Positions 600 to 46,596 of a DNA stretch of 64,000 bases are shown in pieces. The stretch is from NCBI GenBank assembly GCA_035221665.1, contig CM069151.1, positions 33,914,001 through 33,978,000 on the forward strand. Direction: 5' to 3'. Every line of letters begins with the position of its first letter. Within the stretch, counting starts at the first letter, position 1. The notes beneath the pieces were generated by a model. The model did no database searches. It was not told where the DNA came from and saw only the letters and a list, made by a program, of their open reading frames with translations. The position numbers and the translations under genes are program-made. Source of the stretch: Okamejei kenojei (Eukaryota).

Positions 600-2075
600 T
601 CTTTCATTTCCCTTACCGTTCTCAATTTCCCAATTCAGGGGATAGATTGTTGGCCAGTATTCTATACAAGCCTACAGTCTCACACAACTATCTATGATTA
701 TACCTCCTCTAAACCTATTTCCTGTATAGAGTACATTCCATGTTCCCAGTTTCTACTGTTCAATTGTATCTGTTCTGATGATGATGCTTTCCATGCCTTC
801 CTTTCTCCATAAACACAATTTCCCTTCACCTACTGTTCCCTTACCTATACTTCTGCCCTCACCCTCTCTCCTCCCAGAAAAGTTTCCTTTCGTCCTCCCT
901 TCCATCTTCCATGTTCAATGGATCATTCCCTGCAATGTCCACACCTGGTGTCAGGACAACAGCCTCCTCTTGAATCTCACAAATACTAAGGAGCTGATTG
1001 TGGACTTTAGAAAGGCTCAACATCCGAGGACATACATGCCACTGGAGACAAATGGGACTACGGTGGATAGGGTGAACCTTTACCACCTCAGGCAGCTGAG
1101 GAAATTCAGAGTCTCTCTGAGGATCCTTCAGTGCTTCTACTCTGGGGCTGTAGAAAGCATCTTGTCCGGCAACATCTCAATCTGGTTTGGGAACAGCTCT
1201 GCCCAGAACAGGAAGGCTCTGCAGAGAGTTGTGAGTTCAGCCGAACGCACTATGGAAACTACACTCGCCCCCCTGCAGGACCTATACACCAGGAGGTGCA
1301 GATCCAGAGCTAGCAACATTATGAGGGACCCCTACCATCCCAGCAATGGACTGTTCCAGCTGCTACGGTCAGGCAAGCGCCTCCGCTGTCATGCTGTGAA
1401 AACAGAGAGGATGAGACGGAGTTTCTTCCCACAGGCCATCAGGACTGTAAACTCTTATCTCACCAGGGACTGATTTACTGTTGTGTTGTGTCTTTTTTTC
1501 TAAAATGTAAATACTGGTTCTGTTCTATTCTGTTCTGTTGCTTTTTGCACAATCCGCAGACATTGCCACTTTCATTTCACTGCACATCTTGTACGTGAAT
1601 GTGACAAATAAAGTTGACTTGACTTGATCTTCAATAGAATGCCATTGTCAGATGCATTTTTCCCTCCACTCTCCTTAAAGCATTCAGAAGTAAATGCTCC
1701 TTCTACAAACCTCTGGATACTCTCCAATTTCTATCAATCACTTCCTTTCATGTAGAACCATCCCATGCAAGTGCCCTTTTAACTTTTCTCTTTAAGCCCA
1801 ACAGTAAGCCAAATACTCCTTCCAGTTGCAAAATCTATTCCATTTGTACTGTTTTCAATTTAGAGTAGTACCTTAGACAATCACAATGTTGTCTCCTGTA
1901 GATTGGAGAAAATGCAGATTAATTGACAGCTTTGCAGAATATTTATATTATCTACTTAAGGTGACCAGTCACTTTTCACTTTAATTCTCTATTTCATTCC
2001 CACTCTGCCATGAGACAAAATTTGGCCATCAGAACTTTACACTGAATTCATCAATTTCAGATAACCATCCTTTTT
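600..2075 (+). mobile_element. Decayed Penelope-like element (RT C-terminus and GIY-YIG region), split by a Rex1/Babar insertion
   Basis: IPCSQFLLFNCICSDDDAF (735-790) resembles the PLE IP.SQFLR..RICS motif; 1820-2000 resembles the degenerate GIY-YIG region; the sequence resumes after the insertion at about 1628. Confidence 0.55.
940..1627 (+). mobile_element. 5'-truncated Rex1/Babar-type LINE, 3' end
   Basis: ORF 778-1473 contains WCQDNSLLLNLTNTKELIVDFRK, LRQLRKF, VESILSGNISIWFGN and SFFPQAIR motifs; 3' tail AATAAAGTTGACTTGACTTGA at 1607-1627. Confidence 0.8.
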
Positions 2076-3094: not shown

Positions 3095-6005
3095 TAGAGC
3101 CTTAGTCCTAGAGTCGTAGAGTCAAGAAAGTCAAGAGTGTTTTATTGTCATCTGTCCCGGACGGGACAATGAAATTCTTACTTGCTGCAGCACAACAGAA
3201 TCCTAGAGTCCTAGAGTGAAACAGTGTGGAAAAATAGTCCAACTTGCCCACACCGGTCAACGTGTCCAACCAACACTGGTCCCACCTGCCTGCATTTGGG
3301 CCATATCCCTCCAAATACATGTATCTATCTAATTGCTTCTTAAACATTGGGATAGTTTCTGCCTCAACTACATCCTCTGGCAGCTTGTTCCATACACCCG
3401 CCACCCTTTGTGTGAAAATTTTAACCCTCAGATTCCTATTAAATCTTTTCCTTAAACCTATGTCCTCTGGTCCTCGATTCACCTACTCTGGACAAGAGAC
3501 TCTGTGCATCTATTCCTCTCATGATTTTACACACCTCATAAGATCACCCCTAATCCTCATGTGCTCCATGGAATAGTGTCCTAGCCTACTCAACCTCTCA
3601 TAGAATCATAGAAAATAGGTGCAGGAGCAGGCCATTCGGCCCTTCGAGCCTGCTCCGCCATTCAATATGATCATGGCTGATTATCCAACTCAGTATCCTG
3701 TACCTGCCTTCTCTCCATACCCCCAATCCCTTTAGCCACAAGGGCCACATCTAACTCCCTCTTAAATATAGCCAATGAACTGGCCTCAACTACCTTCTGT
3801 AGCAGAGAATTCCACAGACTCACCACTCTCTGTGTGAAAAAAGATCTTCTCATCTCGGTCCTAACATACTTCCCCCTTATCCTTAAACTGTGACCCCTTG
3901 TTCTGGAGTCCCCAACATCGGGAACAATCTTCCTGCATCTAGCCTGTCCAACCCCTTAAGAATTTTGTAAGTCTCTATAAGATCCCAACTCAATCTCCTA
4001 AATTCCAGCGAGTACAAGCCGAGTCTATCCAGTCTTTCTTCATATGGAAGTCCTGCCATCCCAGGAATCAGTCTGGTGAACCTTCTCTGTACTCCCTCTA
4101 TGGCAAGAATGTCTTTCCTCAGATTAGGAGACCAAAACTGTGCGCAATACTCCAGGTGTGGCCTCATCAAGACCCCGTACAACTGCAGTAGAACCTCCCT
4201 GCTCTTGTAATCAAATCCTTTTGATATAAATGCCAACATACCATTCACTTTCTTCACAGCCTGCTGCACCTGCATGCCTACTTTCAATGACTGGTGTACC
4301 ATGACACCCAGGTCTCGTTGCATCTCCCCTTTTCCTAATCGGCCACCATTCAGATAATAGTCTACCCCCCCGTTTTTGCCGCCAAAGTGGATAACCTCAC
4401 ATTTATCCACATTATACTGCATCTGCCATGCATTTGCCCACTCACCCAACCTATCCAAGTCACCCTGCAGCCTCCTAGCATCCTCCTCACAGCTAACACT
4501 GCCCCCCAGCTTCGTGTCATCCGCAAACTTGGAGCTGTTGCATTCAATTCTCTCATCCAGATCATTAATATATATTGTAAATAGCTGGGGTCCCAGCACT
4601 GAGCCTTGCGGTACCCCACTAGTCACTGCCTGCCATTCTGAAAATGACCCGTTTATTCCTACTCTTTGCTTCCTGTCTGCCAGCCAGTTCTCTATCCACA
4701 TCAATACTGAACCCCCAATACCGTGTGCTTTAAGTTTGTATGCTCATCTCTTATGTGGGACCTTGTCGAAAGCCTTCTGAAAGTCCAGATATAACACATC
4801 CACAGGTTCTCCCTTATCCACTCTACTAGTTACATCCTCAAAAAATTCTATAAGATTCGTCAGACATGATTTACGTTTCATAAATCCATGCTGACTTTGT
4901 CCAATGATTTCACCCCTTTCCAAATGTGCTGCTATCCCACCTTTAATAACTGACTCTAGCATTTTCCCCGCTACCGATGTTAGACTAACTGGTCTGTAAT
5001 TCCCCGTTTTCTCTCTCCCTCCCTTTTTAAAAAGTGGGGTTACATTAGCTACCCTCCAATCCTCAGGAACTACTCCAGAATCTAAAGAGTTTTGAAAAAT
5101 TATCACTAATGCATCCACTATTTCTGGGGCTACTTCCTTAAGTACTCTGGGATGCAGCCTATCTGGCCCTGGGGATTTATCGGCGTTTAATCCATTCAAT
5201 TTACCTAACACCACTTCCCGGCTAACCTGGATTTCACTCAGCTCCTCCATCTCATTTGACTCCCGGTCCCCTGCTATTTCCGGCAGATTATTTACGTCTT
5301 CCTTTGTGAAGACAGAACCAAAGTAGTTATTCAATTGGTCTGCCATGTCCTTGTTCCCCATGATGAATTCACCAGTTTCTGACTGCAAGGGGCCTATATT
5401 TGTTTTAACTAACCTTTTTCTCTTCACATATCTATAAAAACGTTTGCAGTCCATTTTTATGTTCCGTGCCAGTTTTCTTTCATAATCTATTTTCCCTTTC
5501 CTAATTAAGCACTTTGTCCTCCTCTGCTGGACTCTGAATTTCTCCCAGTCCTCTGATAGGCTGCTTTTTCTGGCTAAGTTGTATGCTCCATCTTTAGTTT
5601 TGATACTATCCCTGATTTCCATTGATATCCACGGATGCACTACCTTCCCTGATTTATTCTTTTGCCAAATTGGGATGAACAATTGTTGTAGTTCATCCAT
5701 GCAGTCTTTAAATACCTTCTATTGCATATCCACTGTCAACCCTTTAAGAATCACTTGCCAGTCTATCTTGGCCAGTCTATCTTGGCCAGTCTATCAGTCT
5801 CTCCCTCTAGCTCAGACACTCTAGTCCTAGCAACATCCTCGTAAATCTTCTCTGTACCCTTCCCAGCTTGATAACATCTTTCCTGTAGCATGGTGCCCAG
5901 AAATGAACACAATACTCTAAATGTGGCCTCACTAATGTCTTATACAACTGCAACATGACCTCCCGACTTCTATACTCAATGCTCTGACTGATGAAGGCCA
6001 ATGAG
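3095..6005 (-). mobile_element. Older CR1 LINE 3' fragment (3200-3599 and about 5800-6005) hosting a younger CR1; short Rex1-like tail at about 3120-3200
   Basis: FTQRVAGVWNKLPEDVVEA..FKKQLD (3108-3482 ORF) and LYKTLVRPHLEYCVHFW (5807-6001 ORF); CTAGAGTC-type tail repeats; CTCAACCTCTC continues as CTCCCTCTAGCTCAG across the insertion. Confidence 0.75.
3598..5797 (-). mobile_element. Young 5'-truncated CR1 LINE with nearly intact ORF2 reverse transcriptase
   Basis: ORFs 4744-5700 and 3883-4704 share one frame, separated by a single TGA; motifs KSPGPD, NYRPVSLTS, YLDFQKAFDKV, GVPQGSVLGP, YINDL, KFADDTK; 3' frameshift near 3900; TTCTATG tail at 3598-3614. Confidence 0.92.
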
Positions 6006-32856: not shown

Positions 32857-34995
32857 ATAGACCATAGGTGCCGGAGGTCGGCCCTTTGAGCCAGCACAAT
32901 GTGATCATGGCTGATCATCCGCAATCAGTACCTTGTCCCTGCTTTCTCCTCATATCCCCTGACTGCTATCTTTAAGAGCCCTATCAAGCTCTCTCTTGAA
33001 AGTATCCAGAGAACCGGCCTCCACCGCCCTCTGAGGCAGAGAATTCCACAGACTCGCAACTCTCTGTGGAAACCTTGTGAACTTACACTGTACTCCCTAA
33101 ATAGCAAGAATGTCCTTCCTCAAATTAGGGGACCAAAACTGTACACAATACTTCAGGTGTGATCTCACTAGGGTCCTGTACAACTGCAGAAGGACCTCTT
33201 TGCACCTATACTCAACTCCTCTTGTTATAAAGGCCAACGTGCCATTCGCTTTCTTCACTGCCTGCTGTACCTGCATGCTTGTTTTCATTGACTGATGAAC
33301 AAGGACTCCGAGATCCTGTTGCACTTCCCCTTTTCCCAACTTGACACCATTTAGATAATAATCTGCCTTTCTGTTTTTGCTACTAAAGTGGATAAGCTCA
33401 CATTTATCCACATTAAACTGCATCTGCCCACTCACCCAACCTGTTCAAGTCACCCTGCATTATCATAGCATCCTCCTCACAGTTCACACTGCCACACAGC
33501 TTTGTGTCATCTGCAAATTTGCTAATGTTACTTTGAATCCCATCAACTAATAATTTATGTATATTGTAAATACTTGCGGTACCTCACTAGTCACTGCCTG
33601 CCATTCTGAAAGGGACCCGTTAATCCCTACTCTTTGTTTCCTGTCTGCCAACCATGTCAACACTCTACCTCAATGCCATGTGCCCTAATTTTGCCCTCTA
33701 ATCTCCTATGTGGGACCTTCTCAAATGCTTTCTGAAAGTCCAGGTACACTACATCCACTGGCTATCCCTTGTCCATTTTCCTAGTTACATCCTCAAAAAA
33801 TTCCAGAAGATTGGTCAAGCATACTTTCCCCTTCGTAAATCCATGCTGACTCGGACCGATCCTGCTACTGCTATCCAAATGTGCTGCTATTTCATCTTTT
33901 ATGATTGACTCCAGCATCTTCCCCACCACTGATGTCAGGCTAGCTGGTCTATAATTCCCTGTTTTCTTTCTCCCACCTTTCTTAAAAGGTGGGATAACAT
34001 TAGCTACCCTCCAATCCACAGGAACTGATCCTGAGTCTAGAGAACATTGGAAAATGATCACCAATGTGTCCATGATTTCTAGAGCAACTTCTTTAAGTAC
34101 CCTGGGATGCAGACCATCAGGCCCTGGGGATTTATCAGCCTTCAGTCCCAACACCATTTAATGCCTAATGTGGATTTCCTTCAGTTCCTCCGTCACCCCA
34201 GATCCTCTGGCCACTAGTACATCAGGAAGGTTGTTTGTGTCCTCCTTAGTGAAGATGGATCCAAAGTACCTGTTCACCTCATCTGCCATTTCCTTGTTCC
34301 CCATAATAAGTTCACCTTTTTCAGTCTTCAAGGGTCCAACTTTTGTCTTAACTATTTTTTTCCTCTTCACATACCTAAACAAGCTTTTATTATCCTCCTT
34401 TATATTCTTGGCTAGCTTACCTCATCTTCTCCCCGTATTGCCTTTTTAAACATTATCCAATCCTCTTGCTTCCAGCTCAGCTTTGCTATGTTGTACTTCT
34501 TCTCTTTAATTTTTATACTGTCCCTGACTTCCCTTGTCAGCCACGGTCGCCCCTTACTGCCTTTGGAATCTTTTTTTTCTCTTTGGAATGAGCTGATCCT
34601 ACACCTTCTGTATTTTTCCCAGAGATACCTGCCATTGTTGTTCCACTGTCATCCCTGCTGGGATATCTTTCCAGTCAACTTTGGCCAGCTCCTCCCTCAT
34701 GGCTCCATGGTCCCCTTTGTTCAACTGTAACACTGACACCTCTGATTTACCCTTCTCCCTCTCAAATTGTAGATTAAAATTTACCATATTATGGTCACTA
34801 TCTCATAATGGCTCCTTAACCTCAAGTTCCCTTATCAAATCTGGTTCATTGCACAACACAAAATCCAGAATTGCCTTTTCCCTGGTAGGCTCCAGTACAA
34901 GCTGCTCTAAGAATCCATCACAGAGGCACTCCACAAACTCCCTTTCTTGGGGTCCAGTACCAATCTGATTTTCCCAGTCTGCCTGCATGTTGAAA
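32857..34995 (-). mobile_element. CR1 LINE ORF2 (endonuclease C-terminus to RT and 3' end) with several internal deletions
   Basis: ORFs EPTREKAILDFVLCN, KSPGPDGLHPRVLKE, NYRPASLTS, QHGFTKGK and LYRTLVRSHLKYCVQFWSP in the correct order. Confidence 0.9.
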
Positions 34996-43303: not shown

Positions 43304-43504
43304 GTGCTGGGTCAGGAGATGTTGGCGTGGTCATTGTTGATCCCCAGGGACGGCGGGATACGGTGGAGGTGATTCTGGAGGATAAAGGAGACAATGTTCT
43401 CCGCTGCACATACAGACCTCTGCTTGAAGGTCCTCACACCGTCCATGTTACTTTTGCTGGAACACCAATACCCAAAAGCCCCTTCACTGTGAACATCTCT
43501 GAAG
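43304..43504 (+). CDS. FLNC: Filamin-C exon 8
   Basis: CCTCAG|; [33 protein letters not shown]; G|GTAAGG; 201 nt, ends phase 1. Confidence 0.94.
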
Positions 43505-45482
43505 GTAAGGTCCACACACTACATGTGGGCTCTTTGTGTAAGAAGCCTTTGCCTTTCATTCATCCCCTATCCTCTACTCTTTCTCTCCCTAAGAGACGAG
43601 CAAAGGGTGACATATGGGGTAAGAAACCAAAGGAGAGGTTAAGAGATGGGGATGGATTGAAGATAACATAATGCAGGGAGAGTGAAGGAGGGTGAATGTT
43701 TGGGAACGGGGGGAGTGAGAATGATGCTCTGAGGTGAGGCAGGGAGAGTGAGTTTTTGTTGGAGGGGGTTTGTATCCTGGGCATGATGGAGTTTATGAAT
43801 TGTAGGATTTGTGAAAGTAGCGAGAAATCAGGAGCACAGGTGGGCTGTGAGGGAGGATGGGAGCAATTGAAGGCTGACGCTTTGAAAACTGTAATTGGAT
43901 TTGATCCTTGTATTAATGTCAGAAATACCATTAATTGTGTATTCATTATTTCTCTTTTGCGCAAAGATCATCTTTTGAATGGATCGTGTGGGTCTACTCA
44001 ACAACTCTCACAAGCTGTCTGTATATGCACTTGTGTGTTTAAAAAAAAAACCAAAAAAAAACCCCAAAACCTTCATTTCTAAAGCCCCCTTCATAACGCT
44101 GGGTTGCTCAAATGTTTTGCAACGAGTGAAGTCACTATTTCAAAAAGAGTCATGGTCGCCAATTGTGCACATCATAACTAATATCTTTTGTATATGACGC
44201 TGAGGGAGTTAAAATATCAACCAGAATACCTGTTGAGAGCACTGGTTTTCTAACAGTGCTGTCAAATATTTTATATTCTCGGGAATGAGGGTGGCTTCTA
44301 GTATGGAACCTGAAGTTATTATATGACTGGGAATAGGCAGTGTTGTTATCCTGGGCAATGACTCTTCAGTTCAATAATGTTCCATTGGTGATCCGATCCT
44401 GTGGTATCAGTTTTGTCTCTATGGTTAGACCCTAATTGCATGATTCTTCAGCACTGTTACCAAGCCAAATGATTTAAGATCTAGTATTCTGGGGAGGAAT
44501 CTTGCTTCACTATCCATACACATTCAGTTTATAAGGTGTTAATTTCCTAGAATAATTGAGTCATGTCAACATTCATTAAATGATTACGGAGGTGGTGGGG
44601 ACTGGAGTTAAGAATTAATTACTTGTGCCCGGCTGGAGATTTGGCCAAACAGACGTGAAAATGCTTCCATGTCAATTGACTAGCTTCATTTCCAGACATT
44701 ATCTATTAAGCACTTGGCATTTGGGCAAGGTTGAGGACTGCAGAATGAGAGAGCATATGTTTTTATTCTCCAAGAGTTGACCAGTTAACTTGGACTGTTG
44801 TCTTGTCCGATGAAGCCTGCCAAGAACAGCCAACAAATTACTTTAGTGATGAACAGATGCATCTCATTGGGAAGCTGTTATCAATTTACTCGTGTATATT
44901 AAGGAAAATAAAACCGCCTTTGTTTTGCGGAATAGCTTGTCTTTGTGGGCTTTGGCAAGATAGAAGAATCTGACAATCTGGTCGGAGTGGTTGATCTTGC
45001 TCTCTCAAGCTCTCATTTTAAAATTAAACCTTTGCAGATGCTCCCCTGGTTGTGGGGGGACACAAGATTAAGAAAAAGTGATGGTCCTGAAAGTTAGAAA
45101 TGGCTAGTGCGTAGTTGTTGAATTAGCATCCGAAAGGCTGTTTAATAAGGAAAGTTAGGTTTGGGCTGTTTCGCATGGGACAATAGTGAAGCTGCAAGAA
45201 TGCTTGGACCGTGGCTACCTGGAGCTGGGTCCATTGTGTTGGTGGACATTTGGAGGTTGAGGCCATGGTGGTGATTTGAGAGCTAGGGCTGTGCAGGTGT
45301 TGCAGTAAAACTGGGATTGGGTGGCATTTGGACCACTCTGAGAATGGGACTGTTTTGCGGATTTGTCAGCTTGGAGGGAGCTCCATGTTGCCACATCCCA
45401 CTGTACTGCAGGAGAGCCTGGATTTTGCCATTCACACCTTTTAACCTCTCCTTCTCTTCCTCTGTGCTTGGACTGACCTCAG

Positions 45483-45608
45483 GATCCTCCCCTCTGGCCC
45501 AGGCTGCTACACCAGCTCCAATTATGATCGTTCCTCAGTCCATCCACACCCCGCCGGCAGACAAGGCGAAGAAAGCGCCGCCCCCTCCTCCCAAACCCAA
45601 ACGAGCAC
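45483..45608 (+). CDS. FLNC: Putative alternative proline-rich cassette exon of FLNC between exons 8 and 9
   Basis: CT-rich tract then CTCAG|; 126 nt, phase 1 to 1; in frame reads GSSPLAQAATPAPIMIVPQSIHTPPADKAKKAPPPPPKPKRA; donor AC|GTTAGT. Confidence 0.65.
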
Positions 45609-46458
45609 GTTAGTATTGGCCTGGACTGAGGGGCTGCCTCTGCTTGTGTCTGTCCAAGGGGACGCTGGTTGGGCTTGTCTGTATGCGTGGTCGTGATATC
45701 TGTAAACACCGTGTCTGTCCAAGTGGCTGCTTGGGGGATGGTGGTTTTGCTTGCTCTGTGCATGAGGGTACTGGCTCCGAGGCCAGTTCAGGCCCTGGAT
45801 GTCACTGGCTCCAAGTCAGTGCAAGTCCTCTGAGGGTAGAGGGTGGTTAGTGCTGCCTGTTCCTGGTCATTACTAACTTGGTCATCAGCTGTTGTGCTGT
45901 GGTTCTAGGTGGGCACATTGGCTGCCGTGTTCTGCTGAATGGCTCTGCTCCTGCCAGGCCTTGAGTGGAATGGGTTGTAGATTACTGGTTAACTTTGGGT
46001 ATACTTTCCATAATGACTTTTCCTCCCACTGTTTATGGTTGCTCTTTTTGTTTGATGGAGACGAGACGTGATTAAAATCTTGCTCGGTTTGTGCTTTCCT
46101 TTTGCGGACAGGTAGGTGATTTGTCATCTGTACGTGGAGAGGTTGGGCTCTCTCTCTCTCTCTCTCTTTTTTATCCATCACGATGACAATCCTTGCTGAC
46201 TAGTATTACCAGTGTTCTGGGTACTGAGTGGGTGTCTTGATATCCCTCTGAGATTAGTGTGTGTTGTCTGCGGGACGGGATTTGGAGCGCACACGGCTGG
46301 TTTATTCGCTTGCTGAGCCAGCAGGTGGTTTGATTCCTCGTGTATCTGGAATGCTGGTAGATGTGGTTACTGCGATGTGACTGTGGACTGTAGGCTCTGG
46401 GTGGGCATTTTGTGCATTTGATGGGTTGACATTAACCTGACTCGTGTGTTTCTTGCAG

Positions 46459-46596
46459 CATGCAATCCCAATGCGTGTCGAGCCTCGGGGAGAGGCCTGC
46501 AGCCCAAAGGGGTGCGAGTCAAGGAAGTGACCGACTTCAAAGTCTTCACCAAAGGAGCTGGCACGGGGGAACTGAAGGTTGTCATCAAAGGACCCA
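46459..46596 (+). CDS. FLNC: Filamin-C exon 9
   Basis: TTGCAG|; [29 protein letters not shown]; |GTAAGT; 138 nt. Confidence 0.94.

What the first reader, a model, noticed from the sequence alone, without database searches (positions are those of the whole stretch)
45601..46120. Cassette donor overlaps an in-frame stop: possible three-way switch (insert, poison exon or short filamin), in the intron equivalent to that holding the FLNA poison exon
Seen: the donor reads GCA C|GT TAG T, so if it is bypassed the frame ends at TAG 45611-45613, giving a 510-aa product (actin-binding domain, Ig1-2, Pro tail, no dimerisation domain). Downstream lie an ATTAAA (46071-46076) followed by a GT/T-rich stretch and a strong second donor CAG|GTAGGT (46111/46112). 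These would give intronic polyadenylation or an NMD-triggering exon respectively. Knowledge (recalled, to verify): mammalian FLNA has a PTBP1-repressed poison exon (9N) in the intron after coding position c.1429, which aligns with this intron. Inference: an ancestral regulated exon at this position in the filamin family, coding in FLNC and poison in FLNA.
Basis: partly seen in the sequence, partly recalled or inferred. Interest (0 to 1): 0.72.

Follow-up and report, generated by a model that had tools for sequence, protein, structure and literature searches.

The report
Filamin-C cassette beside hidden poison site
A cartilaginous-fish filamin C gene has an optional proline-rich exon that is spliced in or out, in the intron where human filamin A and B carry decay-triggering poison exons, and a hidden splice site 0.5 kb downstream likely adds a similar decay switch.

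Summary
The motifs are all present: TAG 45611-13, a 510-aa read-through product, ATTAAA 46071-76 and CAG|GTAGGT 46111/2. The gene is cartilaginous-fish FLNC. Exon 45483-45608 is a real in-frame cassette: transcript contigs show skipping (4 of 4 runs) and inclusion, and the insert is conserved from sharks to teleosts, lungfish and salamanders. The donor-overlapping stop is unremarkable (4 of 28 donors have one), and poly(A)-like hexamers occur in 17 of 28 introns. No short filamin was found.

(1) The human FLNA poison exon (57 nt) and the FLNB poison exon (98 nt) both lie in this same intron, judged by flanking exon sizes. (2) The 'second donor' is also the best acceptor among 2027 intronic AGs of the gene. 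An exon starting there hits an in-frame TGA after two codons.

This is the anatomy of a recursive-splice or cryptic poison exon, and a better counterpart of the FLNA/FLNB exons than donor bypass. Its use was seen in 0 of 4 runs, and its conservation is untested. Sequence homology among the three exons is not shown.

The parts
43304..43504 (+). FLNC exon 8 (201 nt, end of Ig repeat 2, phase-1 donor AAG|gtaagg)
   Evidence: same length as the exon upstream of the human and mouse FLNA poison exon
45483..45608 (+). In-frame 126-nt proline-rich cassette exon (42 codons) between Ig2 and Ig3, with a weak acceptor and the weakest donor of the gene
   Evidence: joints 43504>45483 (X1, X5) and 45608>46459 (X5); insert in 73 of 97 fetched relatives; site scores
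45609..45614 (+). Cassette donor gttagt, with the in-frame TAG at 45611-45613
   Evidence: 4 of 28 donors carry a stop at +2 or +3
45759..45764 (+). TGCATG, 151 nt below the donor (RBFOX-type motif; label recalled, function untested)
   Evidence: the motif also occurs in 11 other introns of the gene
45872..45877 (+). ACTAAC, 264 nt below the donor (QKI-type motif; label recalled, function untested)
46066..46111 (+). Predicted strong 3' splice site: 44-nt AG-free zone holding ATTAAA (46071-76; possible branch region, or a poly(A)-like hexamer), pyrimidine tract, CAG
   Evidence: rank 1 of 2027 intronic AG, above 23 of 27 real acceptors
46112..46119 (+). GTAGGT donor motif directly after the AG; read as an exon start it gives an in-frame TGA at 46117-46119 after exon 8 or after the cassette
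   Evidence: rank 1 of 2153 intronic GT
46112..46324 (+). Predicted cryptic (poison/RS) exon if the next-best donor CAG|GTGGTT at 46325 is used (213 nt; stop about 205 nt above the junction); its end is a guess
   Evidence: no transcript support
46459..46596 (+). FLNC constitutive exon after the cassette (138 nt, start of Ig repeat 3)
   Evidence: same length as the exon below the FLNA and FLNB poison exons

Best explanation
This FLNC intron holds an in-frame proline-rich cassette exon that is spliced in or out, and a second, hidden AG|GT site at 46111/2 that likely acts as the acceptor of a recursive or poison exon. SHOWN: skipping and inclusion, and a conserved 39-42-residue insert between Ig2 and Ig3 from sharks to salamanders. 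INFERRED, step 1: 46112 outscores the acceptors of the cassette and of the next exon (11.5 against 6.0 and 7.6), so it would capture some upstream donors. INFERRED, step 2: after exon 8 it would rebuild a strong donor (9.9) and be re-spliced without trace, giving the skip form. INFERRED, step 3: after the cassette it would rebuild a weaker donor (5.0), so a downstream donor (6.7) could win and keep an exon with a stop at codon 3, a decay target. The TAG in the cassette donor and the ATTAAA are likely incidental to donor weakness and to the 3' splice-site region.
For: Spliced joints: skip in 4 of 4 runs laid, cassette acceptor in 2 of 4, cassette donor in 1 of 4. Of 97 fetched relatives, 73 have the insert, 20 lack it and 4 were not parsed (the set was found with the insert, so it is biased). 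Ten columns are invariant in 8 aligned inserts. The dual site ranks first both as donor and as acceptor. With the shared CAG|G set aside, the tract has P=0.017 and donor positions +3..+6 have P=0.032; 0.026 such sites are expected in the gene's introns and 0.0007 in an 850-nt intron. No site as good occurs in 407,802 other bases (the scan finds 46112 as a positive control). The region is single-copy. FLNA and FLNB NMD exons lie in the same intron, and mouse Flnb inclusion rises from 0.16 to 0.84 with cycloheximide. Upstream-dependent competition at recursive sites is described in PMC5126111 and PMC6224609 (passages).
Against: No joint at 46111/46112 in 0 of 4 runs (contigs drop rare and NMD-degraded forms). 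The scores come from a matrix trained on only 27 sites of this gene, and the thresholds were set after the fact at the site's own values. The interval is only 2.95 kb, whereas classical cryptic recursive sites lie in long introns. 12 of 28 real exons of this gene begin with GT. The likely FLNB paralog of this genome has no comparable site and no DNA similarity in this intron (score 28, shuffles mean 27.3). Only the hinge-exon FLNC event appeared in the human and mouse NMD tables searched (one file was cut when stored).
Confidence: 0.5

Rival explanations
1. An ordinary two-way cassette exon only. TAG, ATTAAA and the 46111/2 site are chance or unused sequence.
For: Only skip and 45608-donor joints were seen, and the X5 contig joins 45608>46459 across the region. 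Donor stops and poly(A)-like hexamers are common. No matching site occurs in the paralog intron.
Against: The site is first as both donor and acceptor in 34.6 kb, and none as good occurs in 408 kb. It falls in the very intron where FLNA and FLNB carry NMD exons.
Confidence: 0.3
2. One reading: the weak 45608 donor is bypassed and 46111/2 serves as the donor, giving a 629-nt stop-containing exon that is degraded by NMD. The site could also be dual-specificity and act both ways.
For: The cassette donor is the weakest of the gene (2.5) and the second donor is strong (10.6). The stop would lie 498 nt above the junction.
Against: It does not explain the top-ranked pyrimidine tract and the AG-free zone. 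X5, which includes the cassette, joins 45608>46459 and shows no 46111>46459 joint. The TAG is not needed, because the extension is frameshifting and has later stops.
Confidence: 0.14
3. Intronic polyadenylation at ATTAAA 46071 yields a 510-aa filamin (actin-binding domain, Ig1-2, Pro tail).
For: A hexamer followed by a G+T-rich stretch, among the top 4 of 46 in the gene. The reading frame would close cleanly.
Against: Such hexamers occur in 17 of 28 introns. The G+T-rich stretch is the acceptor's pyrimidine tract. None of 97 relatives ends at the tail, and the one hit among 77-2000-aa proteins runs on into Ig3. A strong U1 site 35 nt downstream would be expected to suppress cleavage (recalled knowledge).
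Confidence: 0.06

Closest known systems
FLNA poison exon (exon N / 9N; Zhang et al. 2016, seen only through review passages in PMC8652244, PMC5816070, PMC13542418 and supplement rows of PMC13078869)
   Same: Same intron: flanked by 201- and 138-nt exons. The predicted 46112 exon would likewise carry an internal in-frame stop.
   Different: The FLNA exon is 57 nt, PTBP1-repressed, neuron-included and proven NMD-linked. The FLNC exon shown here is 126 nt and coding. The 46112 exon is only predicted. Sequence homology is untested.
FLNB poison exon (98 nt; supplement rows of PMC13078869 and PMC11188260; review passage PMC12652946)
   Same: Same intron by flanks of 198 and 138 nt; NMD-stimulating.
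   Different: It works by frameshift. No clear counterpart is visible in this genome's likely FLNB locus.
Annotated FLNC isoforms of fishes and amphibians (e.g. XP_072922819, XP_048409865, XP_043944575, XP_078533924)
   Same: Same proline-rich insert, annotated with and without it.
   Different: These are automatic models. No paper on the exon turned up in searches. No amniote hit was found (weak evidence), and the human FLNC review passages list only the exon-31 isoforms (PMC7318287).
Cryptic recursive-splice exons (Sibley 2015, via passages of PMC5126111 and PMC6224609) and dual-specificity splice sites (Zhang 2007, named in PMC5126111)
   Same: A 3' splice site immediately followed by a 5' splice-site motif, a downstream competing donor and an early stop codon.
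   Different: The intron is short (2.95 kb), no intermediate was observed, and the site sits next to a regulated coding cassette.

Membership tests
Filamin C (FLNC) | Highest similarity to annotated filamin-C over the actin-binding domain and Ig repeats | tested here: met
   1615 of 1673 aligned positions identical to P0003, filamin-C X2
Filamin C (FLNC) | Insertion in Ig repeat 20, absent from the other paralogs (PMC7318287 passage) | tested here: met
   The gene continues in L021 with 89-97% identity across P0035 residues 2154-2276; that this range holds the insertion is recalled
In-frame cassette exon (45483-45608) | Length a multiple of 3, no stop, both skip and inclusion junctions exist | tested here: met
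   126 nt; joints; isoform pairs within species
Poison (AS-NMD) exon, for the 46112 exon | Inclusion creates a stop more than about 50 nt above a later junction (rule recalled) | tested here: inconclusive
   In-frame TGA at 46117-19; met if the donor at 46325 or 46357 is used, not if 46130 or 46142 is used, although later junctions of the gene still lie downstream
Poison (AS-NMD) exon, for the 46112 exon | Inclusion observed in transcripts | tested here: inconclusive
   0 of 4 runs show it, but contigs drop rare forms
Poison (AS-NMD) exon, for the 46112 exon | Rises on NMD inhibition | not testable with these tools
   Needs a bench or perturbation dataset
Cryptic recursive-splice site | 3' splice site directly followed by a 5' splice-site motif (YAG|GT) | tested here: met
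Cryptic recursive-splice site | Rebuilt donor stronger than the exon's own downstream donor | tested here: met
   9.9 after exon 8 against at most 6.7; not met after the cassette (5.0) (gene-trained scores)
Cryptic recursive-splice site | Located in a very long intron | tested here: not met
   The exon 8 to next constitutive exon interval is 2954 nt; so it is filed as working like, not as a classical member
Cryptic recursive-splice site | Junction intermediate detected; site conserved | not tested
   No raw reads were listed and no orthologous intron DNA was compared
Intronic polyadenylation isoform | Hexamer plus downstream GU/U-rich element beyond background | tested here: inconclusive
   4 of 46 hexamers are as good
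Intronic polyadenylation isoform | Transcripts or proteins ending there | tested here: not met
   None among 97 proteins or the 77-2000-aa search; no loose end there in 4 runs (contigs cannot show RNA ends)
Ohnologous exon of FLNA/FLNB poison exons | Same intron position and phase | tested here: met
   Flanks 201/138 (FLNC here, FLNA), 198/138 (human FLNB), 195/138 (C16 paralog); the downstream exon matches the start of the FLNA Ig3-5 chain
Ohnologous exon of FLNA/FLNB poison exons | Sequence homology of the exons or their flanks | tested here: inconclusive

The most novel reading that the evidence does not exclude
The Ig2-Ig3 intron was already a regulated splicing slot before the vertebrate filamin triplication. 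FLNA and FLNB kept it as PTBP1-controlled poison exons. Fish FLNC keeps both a coding SH3-ligand-like cassette and a recursive acceptor whose fate (silent re-splicing or decay) is set by whether the cassette was chosen. That would couple isoform choice to mRNA level in one short intron.
Probability: 0.27. Interest if true: 0.65.

Novelty: new variant of a known kind. Interest (0 to 1): 0.42.

Why it matters
The FLNA poison exon is a disease-relevant switch (periventricular heterotopia), and FLNC dosage matters in cardiomyopathy. All three paralogs have an alternative exon in one intron, which points to a shared ancient control point. It also names a specific place to look for a hidden NMD or recursive element in human FLNC intron 8. 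The fish cassette adds a conserved proline/basic linker to a rod region that mammalian work treats as uninterrupted. Without proof that 46112 is used, the finding is a database-annotated cassette plus a positional coincidence.

Tried and rejected
Stop-in-donor as a signal: rejected (4 of 28 donors). Short filamin: no protein support. No run was on record as RNA; the four laid runs are coded relatives whose spliced joints show transcript origin. Uncovered parts are no evidence: X1's inclusion contig stops before the donor, and low-depth intronic pieces lie both inside (45839-46055) and outside (46184-46336) the proposed extension. Only 4 of the 24 listed runs were laid, and no DNA run was compared, so conservation of the intron stays open. 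A third filamin locus (FLNA) was not found in three own-genome searches. The C16 paralog is likely FLNB (2 of 3 domain comparisons favour FLNB, 1 tie). Its intron shows no similarity to this one; the protein-level matches come from a poly-C run. No Rfam match in 43500-46500. The prokaryotic promoter scan is irrelevant here. No usable ESM Atlas hit. The representative-protein search had not finished at submission (ticket). The primary FLNA paper was not held. The strings c.1429 and c.1429+182 were not found. Supplements of PMC8819188 and PMC11653684 hold no filamin rows, and the FLNA rows of PMC6224609 concern other introns. One supplement file of PMC13078869 was cut when stored and one of PMC11188260 was not searched, so an FLNC row there could be missed. 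Earlier-findings look-ups returned nothing.

Full report
GENE AND OBSERVATION. The window holds the first 29 exons of a filamin gene on the + strand, from ATG 24414. The exon map gives an open frame with 1615 of 1673 aligned positions identical to a stingray filamin-C model. The gene continues to the C-terminus downstream. It is cartilaginous-fish FLNC. The finding's donor closes a 126-nt phase-1/1 exon (45483-45608) between a 201-nt exon (end of Ig2) and a 138-nt exon, which matches the start of the FLNA Ig3-5 chain 4m9p. TAG 45611-13, the 510-aa read-through, ATTAAA 46071-76 and CAG|GTAGGT 46111/2 are all as described.

THE CASSETTE IS REAL AND TWO-WAY. I laid 4 of 24 listed runs. They are contigs of close relatives, and the tool only guesses that they are RNA, but they carry GT..AG joints. 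Skipping (43504>46459) is seen in 4 of 4 runs, the cassette acceptor in 2 of 4 (X1, X5) and the donor 45608>46459 in 1 of 4 (X5). No joint uses 46111/46112. Protein searches and cluster look-ups gave 97 sequences: 73 with the insert, 20 without, 4 unparsed and none ending at the proline tail. The set is biased towards the insert. Carriers include sharks, rays, sturgeon, paddlefish, teleosts, lungfish, newt and axolotl. No amniote appeared, which is weak evidence because candidates need shared 5-residue words. Eight aligned inserts keep ten invariant columns. The PxxP/basic end looks like an SH3-type ligand (interpretation from general knowledge, untested). TGCATG and ACTAAC below the exon hint at RBFOX/QKI-type control (labels recalled; the motifs also occur in other introns).

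THE STOP AND THE HEXAMER ARE NOT SPECIAL. Four of 28 donors have an in-frame stop at +2 or +3. The cassette donor is the weakest in the gene (2.5 against 3.1-12.9), as expected of an alternative exon, and its T at +3 creates the TAG. An extension to 46111 would be 629 nt and frameshifting, and would meet another stop after 45847, so the TAG adds nothing to a poison route. AATAAA/ATTAAA occurs 46 times in 34,559 intronic bases, in 17 of 28 introns. Four of the 46 have as G+T-rich a downstream stretch. The search of 77-2000-aa proteins gave 1 hit among 30 candidates, and that hit splices on into Ig3. The short-filamin arm has little support.

With matrices trained on the gene's other 27 donors and 27 acceptors, it ranks first of 2153 intronic GT as a donor (10.6). 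It also ranks first of 2027 intronic AG as an acceptor (11.5, above 23 of 27 real acceptors and above both neighbours, 6.0 and 7.6). It has a 44-nt AG-free zone, in which the ATTAAA sits at branch-point distance. Setting the shared CAG|G aside, the tract has P=0.017 and donor positions +3..+6 have P=0.032. That gives 0.026 expected sites in the gene's introns. None as good occurs in 407,802 other bases on both strands (positive control). The region is single-copy. Caveats: small training set, thresholds set after the fact, prior selection for the donor match, and 12 of 28 real exons here start with GT. Read as an exon start, the site gives two codons and then TGA (46117-19) after either upstream exon.

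MECHANISM (INFERRED). Passages of PMC5126111 and PMC6224609 describe recursive exons. An acceptor followed by a donor motif is spliced to the upstream exon; the rebuilt donor then competes with the exon's own downstream donor; retained exons often carry stops. Here the rebuilt donor would score 9.9 after exon 8 but 5.0 after the cassette, and the best downstream donor scores 6.7 (46325, giving a 213-nt exon). Exon 8 to 46112 would therefore re-splice silently into the skip form, while cassette to 46112 could keep the stop-bearing exon and be degraded. No step of this was observed, and the interval (2954 nt) is far shorter than classical recursive introns. It works like such a site at best and is not filed as a classical member.

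LINK TO FLNA AND FLNB. Review passages confirm a PTBP1-repressed FLNA poison exon (PMC8652244, PMC5816070, PMC13542418), and one names Flnb too (PMC12652946). The primary paper was not held, and c.1429 was not found. Supplement rows of PMC13078869 place the human and mouse FLNA NMD exon (57 nt) between exons of 201 and 138 nt. They place the human FLNB NMD exon (98 nt) between exons of 198 and 138 nt. In this gene, 201 and 138 are the exons flanking the cassette, and no other such pair occurs in the window. The mouse Flnb exon rises from PSI 0.16 to 0.84 in cycloheximide (PMC11188260 supplement). So all three paralogs have an alternative exon in one intron. Against common descent: the lengths differ (126, 57 and 98 nt). 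The second filamin locus of this genome (C16; likely FLNB; flanks 195/138) shows no dual site and no similarity in this intron. No FLNA locus was found. Searches found no paper on the FLNC insert or on the three-paralog coincidence; the library lacks most subscription journals, so the primary FLNA paper may already note the FLNA/FLNB match.

VERDICT. Two arms of the proposed three-way switch are shown. The poison arm is plausible but probably runs through an acceptor at 46112 (about 0.5 for the whole reading, 0.3 for a plain cassette, 0.14 for donor bypass, 0.06 for polyadenylation). Novelty: new variant of a known kind. Interest 0.42.

Noticed in passing
L003, - strand, about 3565-3460 (G000:C16, intron +354/+368 to +460 below the 195-nt exon): Exon-like stretch of 92 or 106 nt (frameshifting) in the same intron of the likely FLNB paralog, with a moderate acceptor and a weak donor. 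A possible counterpart of the 98-nt mammalian FLNB poison exon; unproven.
   Followed up: partly
G000 whole genome: Only two filamin loci were found in three searches (C21 FLNC, C16 likely FLNB). FLNA is missing from the assembly, too divergent for the first look, or lost.
   Followed up: partly
window 46139-46180: A (CT)n and T run about 30 nt below the dual site, rich in PTBP1-type CU motifs (13 tetramers in 46112-46260 against 3-6 in nearby windows; motif label recalled). The read-laying tool skipped this repeat.
   Followed up: partly
window 3886-5718 (-), 33100-34421 (-), 730-1470 (+): Broken reverse-transcriptase-like frames of LINE/CR1 type upstream of FLNC and in its first intron (family label recalled).
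   Followed up: no
P0014, P0016: Tilapia filamin sequences that also carry a ferret name in one source; probably a database mislabel and not evidence of a mammalian insert.
   Followed up: no
L020 + 4838 and L022 + 3008: Two weaker YAG|GT sites with pyrimidine tracts further down the FLNC region.
   Followed up: no
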